This document shows positions 10,438-25,989 of a stretch of 30,381 bases of DNA, piece by piece. Position 1 is the first letter of the stretch. The number at the start of each line of letters is the position of its first letter. This stretch comes from a virus, in UHGV virus genome UHGV-0119412, one strand, 5' to 3'. The position numbers and the translations under genes are program-made. The notes below the pieces were generated by a model. That model searched no databases. It was given only the letters and a program-made list of their open reading frames with translations, and was not told where the DNA came from.

Positions 10438-10568
10438 AGAATGCCGATTGTTAATGCCAAGAGCAAAACGATTCAGCTGTATGCTCTTCTACACAATTCG
10501 GTGTGCATTCATGTATCATTTGAGTGTTGAATCATTCGAAAATCACACAAAACATATGGCAGGTAGTA

Positions 10569-11405
10569 ATGAAAAGAACTTCATCTTTTAGGCGTACAAT
10601 AAGCAATATGAAATATATTATAGGTATCTTTTTTTTATACTCCGGGCTTATAGTAGGGTTGTCTGTTTATAATGATAACTACAACTCAAAATTCATGGAG
10701 AATTTTCTTGTTAATGCAAATTCTTCAATTTTAGACTTTCTTGTTTTGGGTGTGATTCTTTACTATTTTGAAAATAAAAGGCAAAATAAAGATGCTATTC
10801 ACGAACTAATTGAAGATCTTGAAAATCTGGCAAAGCATTCTTCTGCAGAACTGAATATTATGAAGATAAAAATCATACGTCAGTTAAATGCCAAAGGAAT
10901 ATATAACATTCAAGTTCCAAGGATTGAACTTGATAAAATGTCCACTATCAAATATTTACATTTTAAAGACGCTGACTTAACCGGCTTGAATATGAGTGAA
11001 TCATACATTAGAGATTGTTCTTTCGATAATTGCACAATTCAAGCTCTAAATATTACAGGCAATAGAGTTAAGAGTGTTAAATTCAAAAACTGCAAGCTAA
11101 GAAATATTAAGGCATTTAATACATGTTTTCAAAATGTTACTTTCGAAAACTGCAGTTTTGAAGGGGGGTATTTTACAGATAGCGAAATGAAAAGCTGCAT
11201 ATTAAAAGGATGTGATTTTAAATCCGTTACTTATGAAGGGGCTAACATGCGGAATGCAAATCTATTAAATTCAATTAACATTAGCGTTAAAGAACTTGTT
11301 AAAGCAAAAAACATAGATTATTTAATTTGTGATGAGCAAATTAAAAATGAAATAAGAAAGGAAAACCCAGCAATAAAAATATCTAGAGGAATAATACGAG
11401 GTTAG
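10569..11405 (+). CDS. Membrane-anchored pentapeptide-repeat protein (cargo/moron)
   Basis: Plus-strand ORF on the strand opposite to its neighbours, clearly AT-rich. Start chosen at the ATG at 10569, preceded by AGGT (the track ORF begins at a GTG at 10524). N-terminal hydrophobic helix (YIIGIFFLYSGLIVGLSVY) then tandem A(D/N)LxX-type pentapeptide repeats (DADLTGLNMSESYIRDCSFDNCTIQALNITGNRVKSVKFKNCKLRNIKAFNTCFQNVTFENCSFEGGYF...). Confidence 0.7.
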   Translation: MKRTSSFRRTISNMKYIIGIFFLYSGLIVGLSVYNDNYNSKFMENFLVNANSSILDFLVLGVILYYFENKRQNKDAIHELIEDLENLAKHSSAELNIMKIKIIRQLNAKGIYNIQVPRIELDKMSTIKYLHFKDADLTGLNMSESYIRDCSFDNCTIQALNITGNRVKSVKFKNCKLRNIKAFNTCFQNVTFENCSFEGGYFTDSEMKSCILKGCDFKSVTYEGANMRNANLLNSINISVKELVKAKNIDYLICDEQIKNEIRKENPAIKISRGIIRG

Positions 11406-11460
11406 GGAATCGAACCCAACTCAGTGGGCACGCCCACCTAGACACCAGTCCACCTCTATC
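11404..11460 (-). other. tRNA-like fragment (T-loop-like GGGTTCGATTCCC on the minus strand), not an intact tRNA
   Basis: The plus strand reads GGGAATCGAACCCAAC, the reverse complement of a canonical tRNA T-arm box; no complete cloverleaf could be folded by hand. Confidence 0.2.
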
Positions 11461-11486
11461 GCTGAGATATATAATAATTCTCAGCG
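11460..11486. other. Perfect 8-bp stem hairpin (CGCTGAGA / TCTCAGCG) with an 11-nt AT loop
   Basis: Seen directly, between the cargo gene and the gpS stop; no flanking T-run, so not a classic intrinsic terminator. Confidence 0.3.
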
Positions 11487-11495
11487 AATCCAAAG

Positions 11496-16416: not shown

Positions 16417-17271
16417 TCAGCAGTCGGTCAGCAGCTCATCGCCACCACCGCCGCTGGCTTTCGTGCGTCGCGGCTGGCTGAAACTTTCGGTTTTGTCGAG
16501 GGTGGCTTTCAGGGCGGAAAATGCCTGGCTGGTTTCTTCAATCTTGCCGGTCAGTTCCTGTTTAAAGGTGGTAAGCGCGGCTTCCATAGCGGAAAGACGC
16601 TTATCCTGCGCAGTGAGGTTGGTCTGCACATGCTCGCTGACGGTGGTCACCGCTTCATGCACATCATTCAGGCGCGCATCGTCGCTGACCTGCTTACGGC
16701 TGAAAATGGCTTTCACCTTATCTGCCAGGCTGTTTAACACCGTATCGGGAACGTCTTCAAATTCCAGTTCGGCCAGCGTGGCAGCGGAAAAGACGTTTTC
16801 AGGGTTGGCCTTAAAGCGCTGCAGAGGGTTGTGCTTCGCGTTGCGGCAGAATTCGAGGTATTCAGTGCCGAGGCTCGCCGGGTCATCGGTGACAGCAAGG
16901 CCGACGAGGTAGCATTTGCCGGTATTGGCAAAATTCGGCTGAATTTCCATTGAGGTGTAGACCTTCTGCAATTTTTTATTCATCGCAATCAGGTCGTCGG
17001 TTGGGGTGATTCTGGCGAACAACGCCCATTTGCCGTTAAGCGCAGAATCGTCGTCAATTATTTCAGCTTTCAGTTCAACCACATCGCCTAAGCGTTTGAA
17101 GTCGCCATCAGGAAAGAGACCGCGAATATGCTCAAGGTTAATGCGGCAACCGTAGACGCGAGGGTCAAACGATTCGGCCATTTCCTGAATATCGTTGCCG
17201 CTGATAATGCGGCCGTCGCAGGTGTCACCCTCGACGCCGATGCGAAAGAATTTTGAGACTTTTTTTGCCAT
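16417..17271 (-). CDS. O: Capsid scaffolding protein gpO
   Basis: 284-aa ORF, divergent from P; P2 gpO is 284 aa. Confidence 0.85.
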   Translation of the reverse strand: MAKKVSKFFRIGVEGDTCDGRIISGNDIQEMAESFDPRVYGCRINLEHIRGLFPDGDFKRLGDVVELKAEIIDDDSALNGKWALFARITPTDDLIAMNKKLQKVYTSMEIQPNFANTGKCYLVGLAVTDDPASLGTEYLEFCRNAKHNPLQRFKANPENVFSAATLAELEFEDVPDTVLNSLADKVKAIFSRKQVSDDARLNDVHEAVTTVSEHVQTNLTAQDKRLSAMEAALTTFKQELTGKIEETSQAFSALKATLDKTESFSQPRRTKASGGGGDELLTDC

Positions 17272-17436: not shown

Positions 17437-19206
17437 ATGACCATTTCCACCGATACAACCTTGTTGCATGACCCGCGACGGCAGGCATCGCTGCTTTACT
17501 GGCAGGGTTTTTCCGTGCCACAGATTGCCGAAATGCTGCAGGTCAAGCGCCCGACCGTGCAGAGCTGGAAGCAGCGCGACGGCTGGGACGGCATCGCGCC
17601 GATTTCCCGCGTTGAAAGCAGCCTTGAGGCTAGGCTGATTCAGCTCATCGCCAAGCCGCAAAAGACAGGGGGTGATTTCAAAGAGATTGACCTGCTCGGA
17701 CGGCAGATTGAACGGTTGGCGCGAGTCAACCGCTACAGCCAGACCGGCAACGAAGCCGACCTTAACCCCAACGTCGCCAACCGCAACAAAGGGGAGCGCA
17801 AAAAGCCGAAAAAGAATTTTTTCAGCGACGAGGCTATCGATAAACTAGAGGAATTATTTTTCGACCAGTCTTTCGAGTACCAGTTGCAGTGGTACCGCGC
17901 AGGACTGGAGCACCGTATTCGTGACATTCTCAAATCCCGCCAGATTGGCGCGACATTCTATTTCTCCCGCGAGGCACTGCTGCGCGCACTCAAAACCGGC
18001 CATAACCAGATATTTTTATCAGCCAGTAAAACGCAGGCTTACGTGTTCCGCGAATACATCATCCAGTTTGCGCGACTGGTCGACGTTGACCTGACTGGCG
18101 ACCCGATTGTCATCGGTAACAACGGCGCAAAACTGATTTTTCTCGGTACCAATTCCAACACCGCGCAGAGCCATAACGGCGATCTGTATGTCGATGAAAT
18201 ATTCTGGATCCCGAATTTTCAGAAACTGCGCAAAGTCGCCTCGGGCATGGCCTCGCAAAAGCACCTGCGCTCGACCTATTTTTCGACACCTTCCACGCTG
18301 GCGCACGGCGCTTACCCCTTCTGGTCTGGCGAGCTGTTCAACAAGGGGCGCAGCCGGATTGCCGACCGCATCGAAATCGACATCAGTCACAGCGCGCTCG
18401 CCGGTGGCCAGCTCTGCGACGATGGCCAGTGGCGGCAGATTGTCACCATTGAGGACGCCCTTGCGGGTGGCTGCACCCTGTTCGACCTCGACCAGCTCAA
18501 ACGCGAAAACAGTGATGAGGACTTTAAGAACCTGTTTATGTGCGAGTTTGTCGACGATAAAGCGTCGGTATTCCCGTTCGAGGAGCTGCAGCGCTGCATG
18601 GTCGATGTGATGGAGGAATGGGAGGACTTTGCCCCGTTCGCCGACCATCCGTTCGGCTCTCGTCCTGTCTGGATTGGCTACGACCCGTCACACACCGGCG
18701 ACAGTGCCGGGTGCGTCGTGCTCGCGCCGCCGGTGGTCTCTGGTGGCAAGTTCCGCATGCTGGAGCGCCACCAGTGGAAGGGCATGGATTTTGCAGCACA
18801 GGCAGAGGGCATCCGCAAGCTGACCGAGAAATACAACGTCGAATACATCGGCATTGACGCAACCGGCCTCGGTCTCGGCGTGTTCCAGCTGGTGCGCTCA
18901 TTTTACCCGGCGGCACGCGGCATCCGTTATACACCTGAAATGAAAACCGCAATGGTACTCAAGGCGAAAGACACCATTCGCCGTGGCTGTCTGGAGTACG
19001 ACGCCGGAGCAACCGACGTCACGCAGTCGTTTATGTCCATCCGCAAAACCATGACCAGCAGCGGGCGCAGCGCCACCTATGAGGCCAGCCGCACCGAGGA
19101 AGCCAGCCACGCCGATATCGCATGGGCGACCATGCACGCCCTGTTAAACGAACCGCTTTCTGCCGGTAGCGGCATGCAACCTAAATCTATTCTGGAGTTC
19201 AACTAA
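17437..19206 (+). CDS. P: Terminase large (ATPase) subunit gpP
   Basis: 589-aa ORF divergent from O; P2 gpP is 590 aa. Confidence 0.9.
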   Translation: MTISTDTTLLHDPRRQASLLYWQGFSVPQIAEMLQVKRPTVQSWKQRDGWDGIAPISRVESSLEARLIQLIAKPQKTGGDFKEIDLLGRQIERLARVNRYSQTGNEADLNPNVANRNKGERKKPKKNFFSDEAIDKLEELFFDQSFEYQLQWYRAGLEHRIRDILKSRQIGATFYFSREALLRALKTGHNQIFLSASKTQAYVFREYIIQFARLVDVDLTGDPIVIGNNGAKLIFLGTNSNTAQSHNGDLYVDEIFWIPNFQKLRKVASGMASQKHLRSTYFSTPSTLAHGAYPFWSGELFNKGRSRIADRIEIDISHSALAGGQLCDDGQWRQIVTIEDALAGGCTLFDLDQLKRENSDEDFKNLFMCEFVDDKASVFPFEELQRCMVDVMEEWEDFAPFADHPFGSRPVWIGYDPSHTGDSAGCVVLAPPVVSGGKFRMLERHQWKGMDFAAQAEGIRKLTEKYNVEYIGIDATGLGLGVFQLVRSFYPAARGIRYTPEMKTAMVLKAKDTIRRGCLEYDAGATDVTQSFMSIRKTMTSSGRSATYEASRTEEASHADIAWATMHALLNEPLSAGSGMQPKSILEFN

Positions 19207-19207
19207 A

Positions 19208-20254
19208 ATGGGTAAACAAAAATCCCGTAAAGCCAACGCACAAAAGGCCAGCAAACCACAACAACTGATCGCCAGCGCACCGCCAAAAACGACAGCGTTC
19301 ACCTTCGGCGAGCCGGTGCCGGTACTCGATAAGCGCGACATTCTGGATTACGTCGAGTGCATCAGTAACGGCAAATGGTACGAGCCGCCGGTCAGCTTCT
19401 CAGGGCTGGCAAAGAGTCTGCGCTCTGCCGTGCATCACAGCTCGCCAATTTATGTTAAGCGTAACGTGCTCGCGAGCACCTACATTCCGCACCCGTTGTT
19501 ATCCCGTCAGGATTTCAGCCGCTTTGCGCTCGATTATCTGGTGTTCGGTAACGCCTTTCTTGAGCAGCGCCACAGCGTCACCGGCCAGTTAATCAAACTG
19601 CTGGCCTCGCCAGCCAAATACACCCGACGCGGAGTCGACGATTCGATTTTCTGGTTTGTGGAAAACTTCACCCAGCCGCACGAGTTCGCGCCTGATACCG
19701 TGTTTCACCTGCTGGAGCCCGACATTAATCAGGAGATTTACGGCCTGCCCGAATATCTCAGCGCGCTAAATTCCGCCTGGCTGAATGAATCCGCGACGCT
19801 GTTCCGCCGCAAGTATTATCAGAACGGCGCGCACGCGGGTTACATCATGTATGTGACTGACCCGGCGCAGAGCGCGACCGACGTCGAATCGCTGCGCGAG
19901 GCGATGCGCAATTCAAAAGGGCTCGGCAACTTTAAGAACCTGTTTTTCTACGCTCCCGGCGGAAAACCGGACGGCATCAAAATCGTGCCACTGAGCGAGG
20001 TCGCCACAAAGGATGACTTTTTCAACATCAAGAAGGCCAGTGCCGCCGATCTGATGGACGCGCACCGCGTACCGTTCCAGCTCATGGGCGGCAAGCCCGA
20101 GAATATCGGTTCACTCGGTGATGTTGAGAAGGTGGCAAAGGTATTTGTGCGCAACGAGCTGTCGCCGCTACAGGACAGGTTCAGGGAGGTAAATGACTGG
20201 CTCGGCATGGAGGTCATCAGATTCAAAGAGTACACCCTCGACAACCCAGAATAA
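19208..20254 (+). CDS. Q: Portal protein gpQ
   Basis: 348-aa ORF immediately after P (2-nt gap); P2 gpQ is about 344 aa. Confidence 0.9.
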   Translation: MGKQKSRKANAQKASKPQQLIASAPPKTTAFTFGEPVPVLDKRDILDYVECISNGKWYEPPVSFSGLAKSLRSAVHHSSPIYVKRNVLASTYIPHPLLSRQDFSRFALDYLVFGNAFLEQRHSVTGQLIKLLASPAKYTRRGVDDSIFWFVENFTQPHEFAPDTVFHLLEPDINQEIYGLPEYLSALNSAWLNESATLFRRKYYQNGAHAGYIMYVTDPAQSATDVESLREAMRNSKGLGNFKNLFFYAPGGKPDGIKIVPLSEVATKDDFFNIKKASAADLMDAHRVPFQLMGGKPENIGSLGDVEKVAKVFVRNELSPLQDRFREVNDWLGMEVIRFKEYTLDNPE

Positions 20255-20331
20255 CTTAGGCCGCCACAATCTCTGCGCTCATTATTGAAGATGCAATCTG
20301 CGAAAGCTATAGTGCATCGAATATCAAAACA

Positions 20332-21336
20332 ATGGGCGCGGAGATTAATATTTTGGAAACTGATTTTAAAATAACCCTCGAAGGTTTCGCTACTGAGCAA
20401 GAAGCAAATAATATCGGTAATTTCACACTAGAAGCTATCCGAGCTTTAACAAAAAATCTCAATCTTGATATCTCCAAATTAAAATGCGTGATTGTTTCCT
20501 ATAACTTCAGTGAAGCTCTTCAAAAGGTAACATCCTCTTACCAACACAAATCCCCTAGTTCGTTTACCAATAGCAAACAGGGCGCAGCCGTCGGGCAGTT
20601 AGTAACAAAAATTGGCAATGATGGGCTATGTGAAGAATATACCCTTGTGCTATCGATTGATTTTTTTGTTGAGCTTTTCAATGATGGTAGCTTCTTAAAA
20701 CTGAAAGAAGAAGGATACCTCGCAGTCATCCATCGCATTCACCATGAATTAGTGCACGTACATGAAAAAAACTTACTAACATGCTTAGCCCAAAACTTTA
20801 CAGTCAACGAGTATGGTAGCGCGCTTCTTATCTCAGCCACGCGTGCATGGTCTGAATATCTCGCTAATTACATGTCTTCGGGGTCTGCCCCTCAAGAAAC
20901 TATCGATTTATTTTTAGAGAATCTTGACACTGTTGTAAATGAAGTATCTGACGAGATTGAAAAACTCATCTGGGGTTATAAGTACGGTAATATTTCTCTG
21001 AATGACATGTATCTCGAAGTAAAAAAACGTATCAGGCTAATCATCAACTCTTATGCTTATGCGATGGGTTATGTCCATTCTCTAAACATCAATATTAAAG
21101 AATACGATCCAAAGCTATCCCTTACACTATCCAACTCAAAGATAAGATATCAATTATCAGAATTAGGCATTGCTTTTCAGAATCTTTATGGGAAGTTTAA
21201 TGACCAGCACATTACAGGTTTTGGTGATTTTCGGGAGATAACAATAATCATTGATGAAATATTCAAGCAGTTTGGGCTTGTTTTAGAGTGTCCCGATTGG
21301 TCTGGCGACGGTGAACTCTACATACATGTAAATTAG
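20332..21336 (+). CDS. Hypothetical cargo protein with HExxH...NE motif (putative zinc-metallopeptidase-like), between portal and cos
   Basis: 334-aa AT-rich ORF. HHELVH at about nt 20740-20757, with NEYGS about 17 residues later, resembles the gluzincin HExxH-x(n)-E pattern. No obvious Shine-Dalgarno before the first ATG. Confidence 0.6.
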   Translation: MGAEINILETDFKITLEGFATEQEANNIGNFTLEAIRALTKNLNLDISKLKCVIVSYNFSEALQKVTSSYQHKSPSSFTNSKQGAAVGQLVTKIGNDGLCEEYTLVLSIDFFVELFNDGSFLKLKEEGYLAVIHRIHHELVHVHEKNLLTCLAQNFTVNEYGSALLISATRAWSEYLANYMSSGSAPQETIDLFLENLDTVVNEVSDEIEKLIWGYKYGNISLNDMYLEVKKRIRLIINSYAYAMGYVHSLNINIKEYDPKLSLTLSNSKIRYQLSELGIAFQNLYGKFNDQHITGFGDFREITIIIDEIFKQFGLVLECPDWSGDGELYIHVN

Positions 21337-21555
21337 TTTAATCATAGTAGAAACATAATTAGCAGTTTGAATCCTGCCACTCCTGTAAAGCCGCTGCTCC
21401 TGGTGGCTTTTCCATGCACACCACCATCACGCATCAGATGCGTCTCACGCGCACGAACACACCCGACCACCAACGAACCAGCAGCGACCACGACAGCGCC
21501 ATCACGACGCGCTCAGAGGATAATTTTTATTATTACGCATCACTGCTGGCGCGCA

Positions 21556-21574
21556 ATGCTTTCCCCGCCACGCC
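21556..21574. other. cos site (19-nt cohesive-end sequence, 186-type)
   Basis: The plus strand reads ATGCTTTCCCCGCCACGCC, whose reverse complement GGCGTGGCGGGGAAAGCAT matches the 186 cohesive end as I recall it (P2 differs at two positions); it lies in a GC-rich non-coding stretch between Q and the replication region, as expected. Confidence 0.6.
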
Positions 21575-21772
21575 TGCCCGCTTTATGGGGCGGTTTTAAT
21601 GCAGTTGCATGACCACTCTGGATCCCCGCCAGCTCTTGCGGCGCACGTACAAAACGGGTAATCCCGGCGCATGCAGAACCATGCACCTGTTGCATGCACA
21701 GCTTATTTATTGATAAATCACCTTAAATTTACAAAAATTACGGACATTGGTTCTTTCCAAACATGATAGCCT

Positions 21773-21811: not shown

Positions 21812-22753
21812 ATGCAAGGTGAAGTTGACGAACAGCAACCCAATGAGATTATGTCGGAGTTTGGATACTATCCAGTAGAAGTTAACATTGAGACTGAACA
21901 ATTTTCTTTGCTTACTTTACCTGGTCTCAATGAGAAAGTGGAGCGTGTTAACAATGATAAAAACGTTGTGAAAGGTTGGATATACCCTGGAAACCAAGAT
22001 GTATATAACCTTAATGGTGGCATATCCACAATGCCTTATAGTCACCGTGTATTCAGTATGCCCAAAACGCACACACTAAAATTAAAAAATACATCCTCGT
22101 TAGAAACTCTCAACTTTATTGTGTGGTGCCTTTCTTTTTTCAAGGGAATAAGATTGACAACCACTGACGCTGGTTTTTTAGATGCAACCACTATCAAGCC
22201 CACTAAGTTAACCGACTTTATTCTCGTTGGATGCTCTGAAAAAGAAATCATAGAACTGGCTCTTAATTATATAAATGGCAAACATAAGGATGCGCACTCC
22301 CCCAAAAGAATTGCGGCAGTGGTGCATGCACTATTCTTATCTCAAAACCCACAATACCTTTCTTTTGAAAAATTCCAGTACCTTTACATGGCACTTGATG
22401 GGTGCTTTGCTTTGTCGTGGGCTGAGCATGACAAGGCTCCTGATAAAAAACCGCCAAATCATTACAAGCGATTAAAGTGGATGTGCAAAATTTATGGGTT
22501 ATCAATTCCCACATGGGTGTCAGGTAAAAAAAACATTTCTGGCATCCGCAATGATAATTTTCATGAGGCTATTTTTTTTGGTCAACCGCTTGGTTTCTCA
22601 AGTATTAACAACAGTCAATATGGTAACGATATATTGCTGCAAATGCAGGCACTGGTATGTCGCCTATTAGCGGCAATACTGTCGGTTAATGATTGCAGTT
22701 ATCTCAAATCTTCGGTCAACTCACGAGATTACCATTCATTAAAAATAAATTAA
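21812..22753 (+). CDS. Hypothetical cargo protein with HEPN-like RNxxxH motif (candidate abortive-infection/defence RNase)
   Basis: 313-aa AT-rich ORF with a good Shine-Dalgarno (GGAGAAAGA) and the motif GIRNDNFHEAIFFG (about nt 22546-22563); it sits where P2 carries old/tin, between cos and the replication module. Confidence 0.65.
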   Translation: MQGEVDEQQPNEIMSEFGYYPVEVNIETEQFSLLTLPGLNEKVERVNNDKNVVKGWIYPGNQDVYNLNGGISTMPYSHRVFSMPKTHTLKLKNTSSLETLNFIVWCLSFFKGIRLTTTDAGFLDATTIKPTKLTDFILVGCSEKEIIELALNYINGKHKDAHSPKRIAAVVHALFLSQNPQYLSFEKFQYLYMALDGCFALSWAEHDKAPDKKPPNHYKRLKWMCKIYGLSIPTWVSGKKNISGIRNDNFHEAIFFGQPLGFSSINNSQYGNDILLQMQALVCRLLAAILSVNDCSYLKSSVNSRDYHSLKIN

Positions 22754-23236: not shown

Positions 23237-23467
23237 TTAACGCCAGCTATCGTCTTCCCAAATCTCTTGTAATATGCTGCCTAATGTTTCTCTGTCCGCC
23301 TCTTTATCGAATCCGATAGCCTCTACACCAGTCATTGACCCTTTCTTAACGTTAACTTTTGTTGCAGGAAAAACGCATTGTACTCGATGTGTTATTTCAT
23401 TCTGAAAAGCATCAATGATCTGTTGCCCTAATTTTTGCTCTTTATCCAACGTGATATTGATTCTCAT
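23237..23467 (-). CDS. DinI-family protein (equivalent to the Tum C-terminal/DinI-like domain)
   Basis: 76-aa ORF MRINITLDKEQ...GSILQEIWEDDSWR closely resembles E. coli DinI as recalled (MRIEVTI...ISEILQETWES...); it lies downstream of a LexA box. Confidence 0.75.
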   Translation of the reverse strand: MRINITLDKEQKLGQQIIDAFQNEITHRVQCVFPATKVNVKKGSMTGVEAIGFDKEADRETLGSILQEIWEDDSWR

Positions 23468-23766: not shown

Positions 23767-25989
23767 TTACTCATGTATTGGTTTTGATGCTTCAGCCATC
23801 GCCGCAACACGATTAAGGATTTTCCGAGCTTTAGCCTCATGCGATGGTGCTGCGGAAAATATTTCTCCTTTGGCCGTTCCGCGTAGCCATTTACCATCAA
23901 AACAACTTTTACCACCGGCCATCAGGTGCAGGGCTTCGCCCCGGCTGATATTAATGCCGGTTGTCAGATGTATTTCGTCGATAGTTTTAGCTATAGCTGC
24001 GTTTTGCTCATCCGTTCCGTGGATGAATTTTCGCCGTGCTGCTGGCTTTTGCTTCCTGAGTCGGTTGGTCAATTCTCGTCTTTCATGCCGACTCAGTGGT
24101 TTTGTTAAATCCAGTATCGGTGGATCGCTTTCGCTTCCCGTACAGTTATTGACAGAACTCCGAGGGACGGCTTTGCCGTCCTGAAGGTCAACGGCCAAAT
24201 CAACAGCACGCTTCGGAACAATCTTCCACTGAGTGAGCCGGGTTAAAATCGGGCTTCCTGCACCTATGGAGGAATCGTAGACCCCCTTAATACATACCGT
24301 TTCCTCACCGTACTGATTAAGCTCGGTACGCGGTTCATACAGTGTGCGCACCTGTAAATCATCGCGACGGACAAACGGCCCACCCTGAGCATTAACATAA
24401 CCAGCCCAGTCACCAGCGTCGGCGGCATCATGGACGGCGGCAAACTCAACGCTCAGACCGTGCGCGGTTTCGGTATCAGCGAGGCGACGCAACTCACGGT
24501 AAACCGTCACCGGCGCACCACCAATAAACTGAAACTGACGGATGTGCCAGCGCGCAGCCCATGCTGAAACGGCGGGGGCTGTCTCTTTCAGCAGCTCACC
24601 GCTTTCATCATCGGTTTCACCATCGAGAGCATAACCGTCGATATTTTTTGAAATGTATTTAGCAACATAGCCGGTTGCGCTGCCTTTCTCCGGGTTAATG
24701 GACTCGGCGTGGAAACGTGCTTTTTTGGATTTATCGCTTTTCAGTTCGTGGCGGTCTTCTTTCCATGCGTATTTACGGACGATGGAGCGAACATATTCAA
24801 CATCTTCCGGCAGCATGAACATCAGCATGTGCCAGTGTGGAGTGCCGTCGTGATGGGGCTCGGCGACACGAATACCGAAAATACGGACATCTTCCCGATG
24901 TAGTTTGGCACGGATACGCGCCCAGATACCGGTTAGATAGTTTTGCGTGTCAGCCGGGCTGGCACCGCTCCATTTGCTGTTACGGTAACCGGCTTTAGTC
25001 GTGGCGTGATATTTTGACGGCGCGGTTAGAGTGTAAAACTCACCGACATAACCGAGCTCATTACAGATGTTTTCAAACCCACGAATGCGGGTCATGAGCT
25101 CACAGCGGCGAATCGCAGGGTTAGCAACTGAGCCATCATATTTTTCAATCAGGCTGATACGGTTGCCGTCTTCGTCTTCGAGATCCAGACCTTTGAGAAA
25201 TTCACGAGTGCGGCGCTTTTGTTCACGCCAGTCAGTCACGCAGTTTTTACTCGCGTAAGTGTTTTTTTTCTTACTGACGTTGCCGACTGCAATTTGCAGG
25301 TGTTCGCGCCACGTAGCTGCAACACGGCGCAAACGACCGCGCCACCACCCATCGTTAAACATTTTGGCGATAGCCGGTGCGATTTCATCCGCACCGACAT
25401 ATTTTTTTTCAACCCGCTCCCAATGTGGTGGGATAACGTTGAATTGGAGGGAAATAAAGCCAGCACGAATATACCAGGTGTACAGCGTTTTAAGCTCGCC
25501 GAATCCGTGGTCATTAATGTTGGCAAGTTCACCACGAATGAAATTAGCAATATCAGCGGCCAACAGGTCAACATCAGCGCGCGACATGTCCGGGAGACGG
25601 TTATATCGGGCGACCATATTAACCATGCGTGACGACAGATATTGCATTTGCTGAGTATCAAAATGACTTCCAAAAACAGCGGTTGATACCTTGCTGTTGA
25701 TACCAGCGCATTCGTATTTTTTTGCGACCAGTTCAAGACGCGGCAATGCCTTTTTGCAGAAGCTGATTAAAAATGCATTGGCTCGTTGACTACCCTGATT
25801 TTGCTCCAGCACCGCAGCAGTGCGATAAACATCTAACCGCACGCAGTCGGGCTGGAGAGAAAGCACCTTTTTTGCATGCAGCAAAGCCGCGAACATACGG
25901 TCGCGGCGATGCTGTTGCTCATAAGTAAGGTATGGGCTGGAGATTGCCGACCGTGGGACGTTCCACGGATAAGCGAATTGAACAGCCAA
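23767..25989 (-). CDS. A: Replication initiation protein A (rolling-circle nickase, gpA-type)
   Basis: 740-aa ORF with an HUH-type motif (TPHWHMLMF); it follows the small early genes as in P2/186. Confidence 0.9.
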   Translation of the reverse strand: MAVQFAYPWNVPRSAISSPYLTYEQQHRRDRMFAALLHAKKVLSLQPDCVRLDVYRTAAVLEQNQGSQRANAFLISFCKKALPRLELVAKKYECAGINSKVSTAVFGSHFDTQQMQYLSSRMVNMVARYNRLPDMSRADVDLLAADIANFIRGELANINDHGFGELKTLYTWYIRAGFISLQFNVIPPHWERVEKKYVGADEIAPAIAKMFNDGWWRGRLRRVAATWREHLQIAVGNVSKKKNTYASKNCVTDWREQKRRTREFLKGLDLEDEDGNRISLIEKYDGSVANPAIRRCELMTRIRGFENICNELGYVGEFYTLTAPSKYHATTKAGYRNSKWSGASPADTQNYLTGIWARIRAKLHREDVRIFGIRVAEPHHDGTPHWHMLMFMLPEDVEYVRSIVRKYAWKEDRHELKSDKSKKARFHAESINPEKGSATGYVAKYISKNIDGYALDGETDDESGELLKETAPAVSAWAARWHIRQFQFIGGAPVTVYRELRRLADTETAHGLSVEFAAVHDAADAGDWAGYVNAQGGPFVRRDDLQVRTLYEPRTELNQYGEETVCIKGVYDSSIGAGSPILTRLTQWKIVPKRAVDLAVDLQDGKAVPRSSVNNCTGSESDPPILDLTKPLSRHERRELTNRLRKQKPAARRKFIHGTDEQNAAIAKTIDEIHLTTGINISRGEALHLMAGGKSCFDGKWLRGTAKGEIFSAAPSHEAKARKILNRVAAMAEASKPIHE

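What the first reader, a model, noticed from the sequence alone, without database searches (positions are those of the whole stretch)
20255..21336. AT-rich 334-aa HExxH protein inserted between the portal gene and cos
In P2 the portal gene is the gene nearest the left cohesive end, but here about 1.3 kb of AT-rich DNA encoding a 334-aa protein lies between Q and cos. The protein has HHELVH followed about 17 residues later by NEYGS, a gluzincin-like arrangement, which suggests a zinc metallopeptidase. Together with the 313-aa gene on the other side of cos it occupies the Q-to-A accessory hotspot. It may be an independent defence or accessory gene, or may act with the 313-aa protein.
Basis: partly seen in the sequence, partly recalled or inferred. 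Interest (0 to 1): 0.7.

Follow-up and report, generated by a model that had tools for sequence, protein, structure and literature searches.

The report
Orphan zinc-protease gene beside prophage cos
A 186/P2-like prophage carries, between its portal gene and its DNA-packaging site, a foreign single-gene cassette for a soluble zinc protease from a family nobody has described. It sits in a known anti-phage defence hotspot, so it is a credible but untested candidate for a new protease-based phage defence.

Summary
A 1.15-kb AT-rich insert (GC 38% against 55-57% in the flanking core genes) lies between the portal stop codon and the tW-like terminator and cos of a 186/P2-like prophage. It encodes one protein: 334 aa from the ATG, more likely 327 aa from TTG 20353.

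No Pfam, NCBIfam or PADLOC model covers the family, and it is related to neither Lit nor M1 by sequence.

The gene is autonomous:
- it has no conserved neighbour;
- it occurs with and without the 313-aa gene;
- distant relatives sit in defence islands, prophages and resolvase islands.

The gpA-gpQ region is a published defence hotspot. My best reading is a single-gene, Lit-like proteolytic anti-phage module, and that function is inferred, not shown. I rate it as an undescribed family of a known kind, of moderate interest.

The parts
20255..20352 (+). Upstream leader of the cassette. It holds a sigma-70-like promoter, TTGAAG (20285-20290), 17 nt, TATAGT (20308-20313), and a Shine-Dalgarno GGAG (20340-20343) 9 nt before TTG 20353.
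   Evidence: The promoter scan found the site. Both hexamers, the GGAG and the TTG are invariant in E. coli, Salmonella, Citrobacter and Escherichia sp. copies. A TATAGT-like element and a GGAG/GAGG before the start also occur upstream of the Enterobacter and Serratia homologues, which sit in a different genomic context. Promoter activity was not tested.
20332..21336 (+). Coding sequence of the predicted soluble gluzincin-type zinc metallopeptidase. It is 334 aa from ATG 20332 and probably 327 aa from TTG 20353.
20743..20757 (+). Codons for H138-E139-L-V-H142, the HExxH zinc-binding and catalytic motif.
   Evidence: H138, E139 and H142 are invariant in alignment A2 of 78 sequences at 16-50% identity to the query. 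They lie in model helix 126-148.
20854..20856 (+). Codon for E175 (in WSEY), the predicted third zinc ligand on the 'glutamate helix'.
   Evidence: E175 is the only other invariant column in A2, and W173 and A178 are at least 90% conserved. It lies in model helix 160-185. Its role as a ligand is inferred from the gluzincin pattern.
21389..21412 (+). Intrinsic-terminator-like hairpin with a T run. It is the equivalent of phage 186 tW and here lies downstream of ORF334 rather than directly after the portal gene.
   Evidence: The terminator scan found it. It aligns with the annotated 186 tW region. No terminator-like site was found between the portal stop and ORF334, so late P-Q transcripts would be expected to read into ORF334. 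That last point is inference.

Best explanation
ORF334 is an autonomous single-gene cargo ('moron') cassette. It carries its own promoter-like leader and was inserted between the portal stop codon and the tW terminator and cos of a 186/P2-like prophage, inside the known gpA-gpQ cos-proximal defence hotspot.

It encodes a soluble cytoplasmic zinc metallopeptidase of the gluzincin type. H138 and H142 of HExxH plus E175 would bind zinc, and E139 would be the catalytic base. A roughly 125-residue C-terminal helical domain is a candidate substrate- or trigger-binding module.

The most likely role is anti-phage defence by proteolysis, working like the e14 prophage protease Lit. Under that model the enzyme is made in the lysogen and held latent. 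A protein of an infecting competitor phage then activates or engages it, and it cleaves either an essential host factor (abortive infection) or a phage protein.

Shown here: the insert, its foreign composition, the invariant HExxH...E, the gluzincin-like fold, the gene's solitary nature, its independence from ORF313, and its recurrent placement in defence or mobile-element contexts.

Inferred: zinc binding, peptidase activity, expression in the lysogen, the defence phenotype, and the trigger and target.

Sub-confidences: zinc metallopeptidase about 0.85; autonomous single-gene module about 0.85; anti-phage defence about 0.5; Lit-like trigger-activated mechanism about 0.3.
For: Insert and composition.

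Catalytic motif: the only invariant columns among 78 homologues at 16-50% identity to the query are H138, E139, H142 and E175. In the closer set of 33 sequences, HHELxHxxExN and WSEYxAN are invariant.

Solubility: no TM segment.

Solitary gene: no conserved neighbour was found across 18 loci.

Independence from ORF313:
- Salmonella copies (90% identity, indexed in 1994 blocks of the collection) sit in the same slot with different genes across cos.
- E. coli 1008S13 and TW10598 have ORF334 without ORF313.
- ORF313 is in 93 complete E. coli genomes and ORF334 in 26.
- P2-EC67 and Yersinia phages have ORF313 without ORF334.

Defence or mobile-element context of homologues:
- type I RM, Xre and VspR island;
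- PIN-TPR-GreABC plus PDC-S32, a TIR protein (PDC-S35), and a prophage tape measure;
- NB-ARC STAND NTPase plus HEPN_Swt1 plus resolvase;
- RT plus AAA_21 plus PRTase-CE plus MC2/CTD6 plus HEPN-MNT;
- resolvase and integrase islands.

Published hotspot: Rousset 2022, PMC9122126; Vassallo 2022, PMC9519451.

Own promoter-like leader, conserved across contexts.
Against: - There is no experimental evidence of any kind.
- No defence-system model matches (PADLOC 2.0).
- Foldseek finds nothing at E <= 1e-3 in the PDB or BFVD.
- There is no sequence or profile link to Lit (19 columns, probability 17%) or to M1 PepN.
- Some homologues lie beside housekeeping genes: putA in L026 and sbcB in L020.
- The gene lies inside the late P-Q transcription unit, upstream of tW, which would also suit a lytic-cycle function.
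- Frameshifted or fragmentary copies recur, so selection on the gene is not uniformly strong.
- I could not inspect model coordinates to confirm that H138, H142 and E175 converge on one site.
Confidence: 0.5

Rival explanations
1. It is a lytic-cycle or counter-defence protease. Under this reading it is co-transcribed with terminase and portal from the late promoter and degrades a host defence protein, a host factor or a satellite (P4-type) protein to benefit the phage's own replication.
For: The gene is on the same strand as P-Q, and no terminator-like site separates it from the portal gene. The tW-like terminator follows it.
Against: Homologues occur in chromosomal defence islands and resolvase islands that have no phage late operon. 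The cassette carries a conserved promoter-like leader of its own. Late expression would be too late for most counter-defence.
Confidence: 0.12
2. It is a non-antiviral fitness or conflict moron, for example a toxin or effector protease used against other bacteria or a host, or a stress-related protease.
For: P2 hotspots also carry non-defence cargo such as cytolethal distending toxin and partition systems. The Serratia copy lies near Hcp/DUF4225 and a pP_pnuc protein. The Kosakonia copy lies near Tlde1 and YafO.
Against: There is no signal peptide or TM segment. There is no PAAR, Rhs or other delivery domain, and no adjacent immunity gene is conserved. The T6SS association appears in one locus only.
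Confidence: 0.12
3. It has a zincin fold but is not a classical peptidase. It could be a pseudo-enzyme, or a hydrolase acting on another substrate such as nucleic acid (like YbeY) or DNA-protein crosslinks (like SprT/Wss1).
Against: The strictly invariant HExxH plus a Glu on the next helix is the gluzincin peptidase signature, and YbeY uses HxxxHxxxxxH. The best structural matches are true peptidases. Invariance of E139 argues against a pseudo-enzyme.
Confidence: 0.08
4. It is an ImmA/IrrE/CapP-type regulatory protease that cleaves a repressor to switch on neighbouring genes or prophage induction.
For: It is a mobile-element-borne HExxH protease. The Paracoccus homologue has a divergent HTH_3 neighbour. 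BFVD weakly lists an IrrE-like protein.
Against: There is no Peptidase_M78 hit. No HTH partner is conserved. At 327 aa with a different C-terminal domain, the architecture differs. The M78 'Peptidase + TM' system tested by Rousset is unrelated in sequence.
Confidence: 0.05
5. It is half of a two-gene system with the 313-aa protein across cos.
For: Both genes are AT-rich and adjacent in this prophage lineage. About 17 complete E. coli genomes carry the >=99% versions of both.
Against: Each gene occurs without the other. The 313-aa family is far more widespread, with 397+ clusters in Pseudomonas, Acinetobacter and Aeromonas. cos separates the two, so they sit at opposite ends of packaged DNA. 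Each has its own promoter-like and terminator-like signals.
Confidence: 0.03

Closest known systems
Lit protease of the E. coli e14 prophage (peptidase U49)
   Same: It is prophage-encoded, a single gene of about 300 aa, soluble, and carries an HExxH zinc-protease motif on a helix (ILHHEISHV in Lit, IHHELVHV here). It is carried as accessory cargo. Lit is the established example of a latent protease that a phage protein activates to cleave a host factor (my own knowledge of the Lit/Gol/EF-Tu literature).
   Different: There is no detectable homology beyond the 19 columns around HExxH (hhalign probability 17%). There is no Peptidase_U49 or PADLOC Lit hit. The third ligand and the C-terminal domain differ, and trigger and target are unknown here.
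Gluzincin (clan MA(E)) peptidases: M1 aminopeptidase catalytic domain, M4 thermolysin, M9 collagenase, M30 hyicolysin/lugdulysin
   Different: Sequence identity is 9-12%. There is no Pfam or profile link. The HExxH-to-Glu spacing is 32 residues. It has no signal peptide or propeptide and no flanking M1 domains, and it has its own C-terminal helical domain. Foldseek finds no significant match.
Cargo of the P2 gpA-gpQ cos-proximal defence hotspot (old, tin, retrons, DUF4238, DprA-PRTase and others; Rousset 2022, Vassallo 2022)
   Same: It is at the same locus, is AT-rich foreign cargo, is present in a minority of related prophages, and can be swapped.
   Different: It lies on the portal side of cos, upstream of the portal terminator. 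The sequences of two tested P2-hotspot constructs (pFR106, pFR108) read portal-gene end, then terminator, then cos, so those systems lie beyond cos on the gpA side, as does ORF313 here. The protein matches none of the described systems, and the 'Peptidase + TM' system tested there is an unrelated M78 protein.
PDB 3cmn, putative hydrolase from Chloroflexus aurantiacus (298 aa)
   Different: Identity is 10%, and that protein's function is also unknown. It was not recovered by sequence or profile search.

Membership tests
Gluzincin zinc metallopeptidases (clan MA(E)) | An HExxH motif, conserved, located on an alpha-helix | tested here: met
   H138, E139 and H142 are invariant in 78 sequences at 16-50% identity to the query. 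They lie in model helix 126-148.
Gluzincin zinc metallopeptidases (clan MA(E)) | A third zinc ligand that is a Glu on a helix downstream of HExxH | tested here: met
E175 is invariant, lies 32 residues after H142 and is in model helix 160-185.
Gluzincin zinc metallopeptidases (clan MA(E)) | A zincin/thermolysin-like catalytic fold | tested here: met
Gluzincin zinc metallopeptidases (clan MA(E)) | Zinc binding and peptide-bond hydrolysis | not testable with these tools
   This needs biochemistry.
M1 aminopeptidase family | Sequence or profile homology to the M1 catalytic domain (HExxH-x18-E, GxMEN) | tested here: not met
   hhalign of A2 against E. coli PepN gave probability 0.6% with no motif alignment. 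There is no Peptidase_M1 hit, and the spacing is 32, not 18.
Lit (peptidase U49) abortive-infection protease | Homology to Lit across the protein | tested here: not met
   hhalign of A2 against K-12 Lit aligned 19 columns around HExxH only, probability 16.7%. There is no Pfam or PADLOC hit.
Lit (peptidase U49) abortive-infection protease | Phage-peptide-triggered cleavage of a host translation factor | not testable with these tools
   This needs infection assays and substrate identification.
ImmA/IrrE (M78) regulatory proteases | An M78 domain and an adjacent HTH repressor partner | tested here: not met
   There is no Peptidase_M78 hit, and no conserved neighbour of any kind.
P2 Old / Tin exclusion proteins | Homology to Old (OLD-family nuclease) or Tin | tested here: not met
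   There is no PADLOC, Pfam or NCBIfam hit at E <= 1.
Cargo of the P2 gpA-gpQ defence hotspot | Located between the portal gene and the replication gene A next to cos, and variable among related prophages | tested here: met
   The layout is shown. The gene is absent from 186, PSP3, SEN1, EtG and the Yersinia phages and present in 26 of 5426 complete E. coli genomes. The hotspot is defined in PMC9122126 and PMC9519451.
Cargo of the P2 gpA-gpQ defence hotspot | Confers resistance to phage infection | not testable with these tools
   This needs plaque assays. The family is not among the systems cloned by Rousset 2022.

The most novel reading that the evidence does not exclude
ORF334 founds a widespread family (at least 355 clusters at 50% identity, from Enterobacterales to Alphaproteobacteria and marine Gammaproteobacteria) of single-gene, trigger-activated zinc-protease anti-phage systems. 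It would be mechanistically analogous to Lit but evolutionarily unrelated to it. The C-terminal helical domain would sense a phage protein, and the gluzincin domain would cleave an essential host or phage target.
Probability: 0.3. Interest if true: 0.65.

Novelty: new member of a known kind. Interest (0 to 1): 0.45.

Why it matters
Protease-based single-gene phage defence has essentially one classical, mechanistically understood example, Lit. Here there is a well-conserved family missing from Pfam, NCBIfam and PADLOC, with an unambiguous catalytic signature and a confident structural model. It recurs in defence hotspots across distant bacteria.

If it does defend, it would add a new effector class. 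It would also give a tractable system, one gene of 327 aa with four obvious point mutants, for asking how a latent cytoplasmic protease senses infection and what it cuts.

It also shows that the portal side of cos, inside the late P-Q transcription unit, can accept cargo in 186/P2-like phages. The variant is very common in Salmonella.

If it is not a defence gene, it is simply one more uncharacterised prophage moron.

Tried and rejected
- **Sequence searches against solved structures** found nothing meaningful, with either the single sequence or the 78-sequence profile.
- **Foldseek** against the PDB and BFVD gave no hit at E <= 1e-3.
- **Pfam, NCBIfam and PADLOC** gave no family for the window protein or for any of 78 relatives. 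Only two weak Peptidase_Mx1 hits appeared, at E 0.0025. PHROG 11743 is of unknown function.
- **Lit homology** is rejected, and so is **M1 homology**.
- **Partnership with ORF313** is rejected on co-occurrence.
- **A conserved partner gene** was sought by all-against-all BLASTP of four neighbours on each side in 18 loci. It found only a resolvase shared by two loci and an HTH protein shared by three.
- **The 312/313-aa proteins next to the Psychromonas homologues** looked suspicious by length but are unrelated to ORF313 (DUF1848 and other).
- **Rousset's 'Peptidase + TM' P2 system** proved to be an M78 protein, not this family.
- **Supplements of the 2026 NAR paper on P2/P4 hotspots** are not held.
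- **Literature searches** for an HExxH or metalloprotease defence system matching this protein found nothing relevant.
- **The search for related loci with the diverse alignment** failed because no stretch was conserved enough. The closer alignment gave 12 loci.

Full report
**1. What is in the sequence**

The window is a 186/P2-like prophage, 99.985% identical over 13 kb to E. coli strain N56. Around the finding the layout is:
- scaffold gene (16417-17271, minus strand);
- terminase ATPase (17437-19206, plus strand);
- portal (19208-20254, plus strand; Phage_portal);
- the ORF in question (20332-21336, plus strand);
- a terminator-like hairpin (about 21389-21412);
- the cohesive-end sequence (21556-21574, exact match, 0 in 100 shuffles);
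- a 313-aa ORF (21812-22753, plus strand);
- small ORFs and a DinI-like gene;
- replication gene A (23767-25989, minus strand).

Aligned with phage 186, the portal gene matches up to its stop codon. Similarity then resumes at 21401 and runs to the cos end at 21574. So 1146 bp (20255-21400) stand where 186 has about 20 bp between the stop codon and the tW terminator.

The insert has GC 0.377 and GC3 0.367, against 0.554 and 0.705 for portal.

**2. Start codon and signals**

The ATG at 20332 has no Shine-Dalgarno sequence. The TTG at 20353 is preceded by GGAG at a 9-nt spacing. PGAP annotates that start, and distant homologues begin at exactly that position (ME.D...), with ATG or TTG and a GGAG/GAGG upstream. 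The protein is probably 327 aa. I keep the 334-aa numbering below.

A sigma-70-like TTGAAG-17-TATAGT lies at 20285-20313. It is invariant in E. coli, Salmonella, Citrobacter and Escherichia sp. copies. A TATAGT-like element also precedes the Enterobacter and Serratia homologues, which sit in a different context.

No terminator-like site separates portal from the ORF, and the tW-like hairpin follows the ORF. My inference is that the cassette brings its own promoter and would also be read through from the late P-Q transcript.

**3. What the protein is**

It has no Pfam, NCBIfam or PADLOC hit. Its only family assignment is PHROG 11743, of unknown function. Two further PHROGs are merely its N- and C-terminal fragments.

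It has 78 homologue clusters at E <= 1e-3, every named one called hypothetical or uncharacterised, ranging from Enterobacterales to Shewanella and Psychromonas. A profile search of 1.84 billion representatives finds 355 clusters, nearly all 300-345 aa.

W173, A178, G246 and G315 are at least 90% conserved. This is the gluzincin signature, HExxH plus a downstream Glu, with a 32-residue spacing.

AlphaFold gives a confident model (pLDDT 90.7, pTM 0.89). It has an N-terminal alpha/beta subdomain, helix 126-148 carrying HExxH, helix 160-185 carrying E175, then a helical domain (188-313) and a terminal hairpin.

Foldseek finds nothing significant in the PDB or BFVD. Its weak hits are again zincins. 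Profile comparisons show no relation to Lit beyond the motif helix and none to PepN.

The protein has no hydrophobic segment (maximum KD19 of 1.19) and a pI of 5.0, so it should be cytoplasmic. I conclude that it belongs to a distinct, undescribed family of gluzincin-type zinc metallopeptidases. Metal binding and catalysis are inferred.

**4. Is it autonomous?**

Yes, on four lines of evidence:
- In Salmonella the 90%-identical gene is very common (indexed in 1994 blocks of the collection). It occupies the same slot after portal, but the genes across cos are different: unknown proteins of 243, 220 or 198 aa.
- E. coli 1008S13 has an intact copy and no ORF313. TW10598 has a frameshifted copy and no ORF313.
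- ORF313 is in 93 complete E. coli genomes, only 17 of them at >=99% identity, while ORF334 is in 26. ORF313 occurs without ORF334 in P2-EC67 and in Yersinia phages.
- All-against-all BLASTP of four neighbours on each side in 18 loci found no conserved partner.

**5. Context**

The gpA-gpQ cos-proximal region is a published hotspot of anti-phage systems in P2-like phages (PMC9122126; PMC9519451).

Outside P2-like prophages, homologues lie in these settings:
- next to a divergent serine resolvase in integrase islands, in Enterobacter and Serratia, the latter with a HEPN_Swt1-like gene;
- in a type I RM, Xre, VspR and helicase island in Psychromonas;
- beside a PIN-TPR-GreABC system and PDC-S32 in Vibrio, beside a TIR protein (PDC-S35) in Colwellia, and in a Gilliamella prophage;
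- for 20-24% identical relatives, beside an NB-ARC STAND NTPase plus HEPN_Swt1 plus resolvase, and between an RT/AAA_21/PRTase-CE/MC2-CTD6 cluster and a HEPN-MNT pair.

A few are beside housekeeping genes: putA and sbcB. This is guilt by association, not proof, but it favours a conflict-system role over a phage-lifecycle role.

**6. Mechanism**

I consider most likely a latent cytoplasmic protease, made in the lysogen, that is activated or recruited by a component of an infecting phage. It would then cleave a host or phage protein. Lit of prophage e14 is the working analogy, though not a relative.

Rivals are a late-expressed counter-defence or takeover protease, a non-antiviral conflict or fitness moron, a non-peptidase zincin, an ImmA-like regulator, and a two-gene system with ORF313. 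Their evidence is given in the rivals section.

**7. Novelty and verdict**

The locus type and the enzyme class are known. The family is not described in the libraries or papers I could search. Hundreds of uncharacterised proteins occupy this hotspot, so this is a good candidate rather than a surprise. The clean catalytic signature, the confident fold, the breadth of the family and the rarity of protease-only defence raise it somewhat above the average hypothetical moron.

Noticed in passing
window 21812-22753 (+): The 313-aa protein across cos belongs to a large family of 397+ clusters in Enterobacterales, Aeromonas, Pseudomonas, Acinetobacter and Stenotrophomonas. One UniRef entry calls a member an 'Apea-like HEPN domain-containing protein'. 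R246-N247-x3-H251-E252, the HEPN Rx4H motif, is invariant in 20 diverse members. It has no Pfam or PADLOC hit. It is probably an independent HEPN-type candidate defence gene.
   Followed up: partly
window ~10450-11490; ORF 10524-11405 (+): There is a second AT-rich insert (GC 0.30-0.33) among the tail genes. It encodes a 293-aa protein with N-terminal hydrophobic segments and a C-terminal region resembling pentapeptide repeats. It may be cargo of another P2 hotspot.
   Followed up: no
L014 4578-5581 (E. coli TW10598); PHROGs 30021 and 28537; P0232: Disrupted copies of ORF334 recur. The gene is split into two ORFs in TW10598. Two PHROGs correspond to its N- and C-terminal fragments. A 113-aa fragment is seen on 40 contigs. 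This suggests relaxed selection or a cost in some lineages.
   Followed up: partly
L002 7558-8301 (E. coli N56), corresponding to window 21812-22555: Strain N56 differs from the window by a one-base indel over 13 kb. Its ORF313 homologue is annotated as only 744 nt, so it is probably truncated there.
   Followed up: partly
L010 5042-5614, L011 5116-5685, L031 11636-13922: A serine resolvase lies divergently upstream of the Enterobacter and Serratia homologues, and the two resolvases are 72% identical to each other. A HEPN_Swt1-like gene and a resolvase also lie near a 24%-identical homologue. This may be a shared type of resolvase-mobilised cargo island.
   Followed up: no
window 21367-21612 (+) and 21540-21695 (-): Short ORFs of 81 and 51 aa span the cos region. 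PGAP annotates the 51-aa one in strain N56. They overlap the conserved packaging site and terminators, so they are probably not genes.
   Followed up: no
window 23237-23467 (-): A DinI-like protein (PF06183, E 1.7e-17) lies between ORF313 and gene A. The same position holds DinI-like genes in the Salmonella and other E. coli versions of the locus.
   Followed up: no
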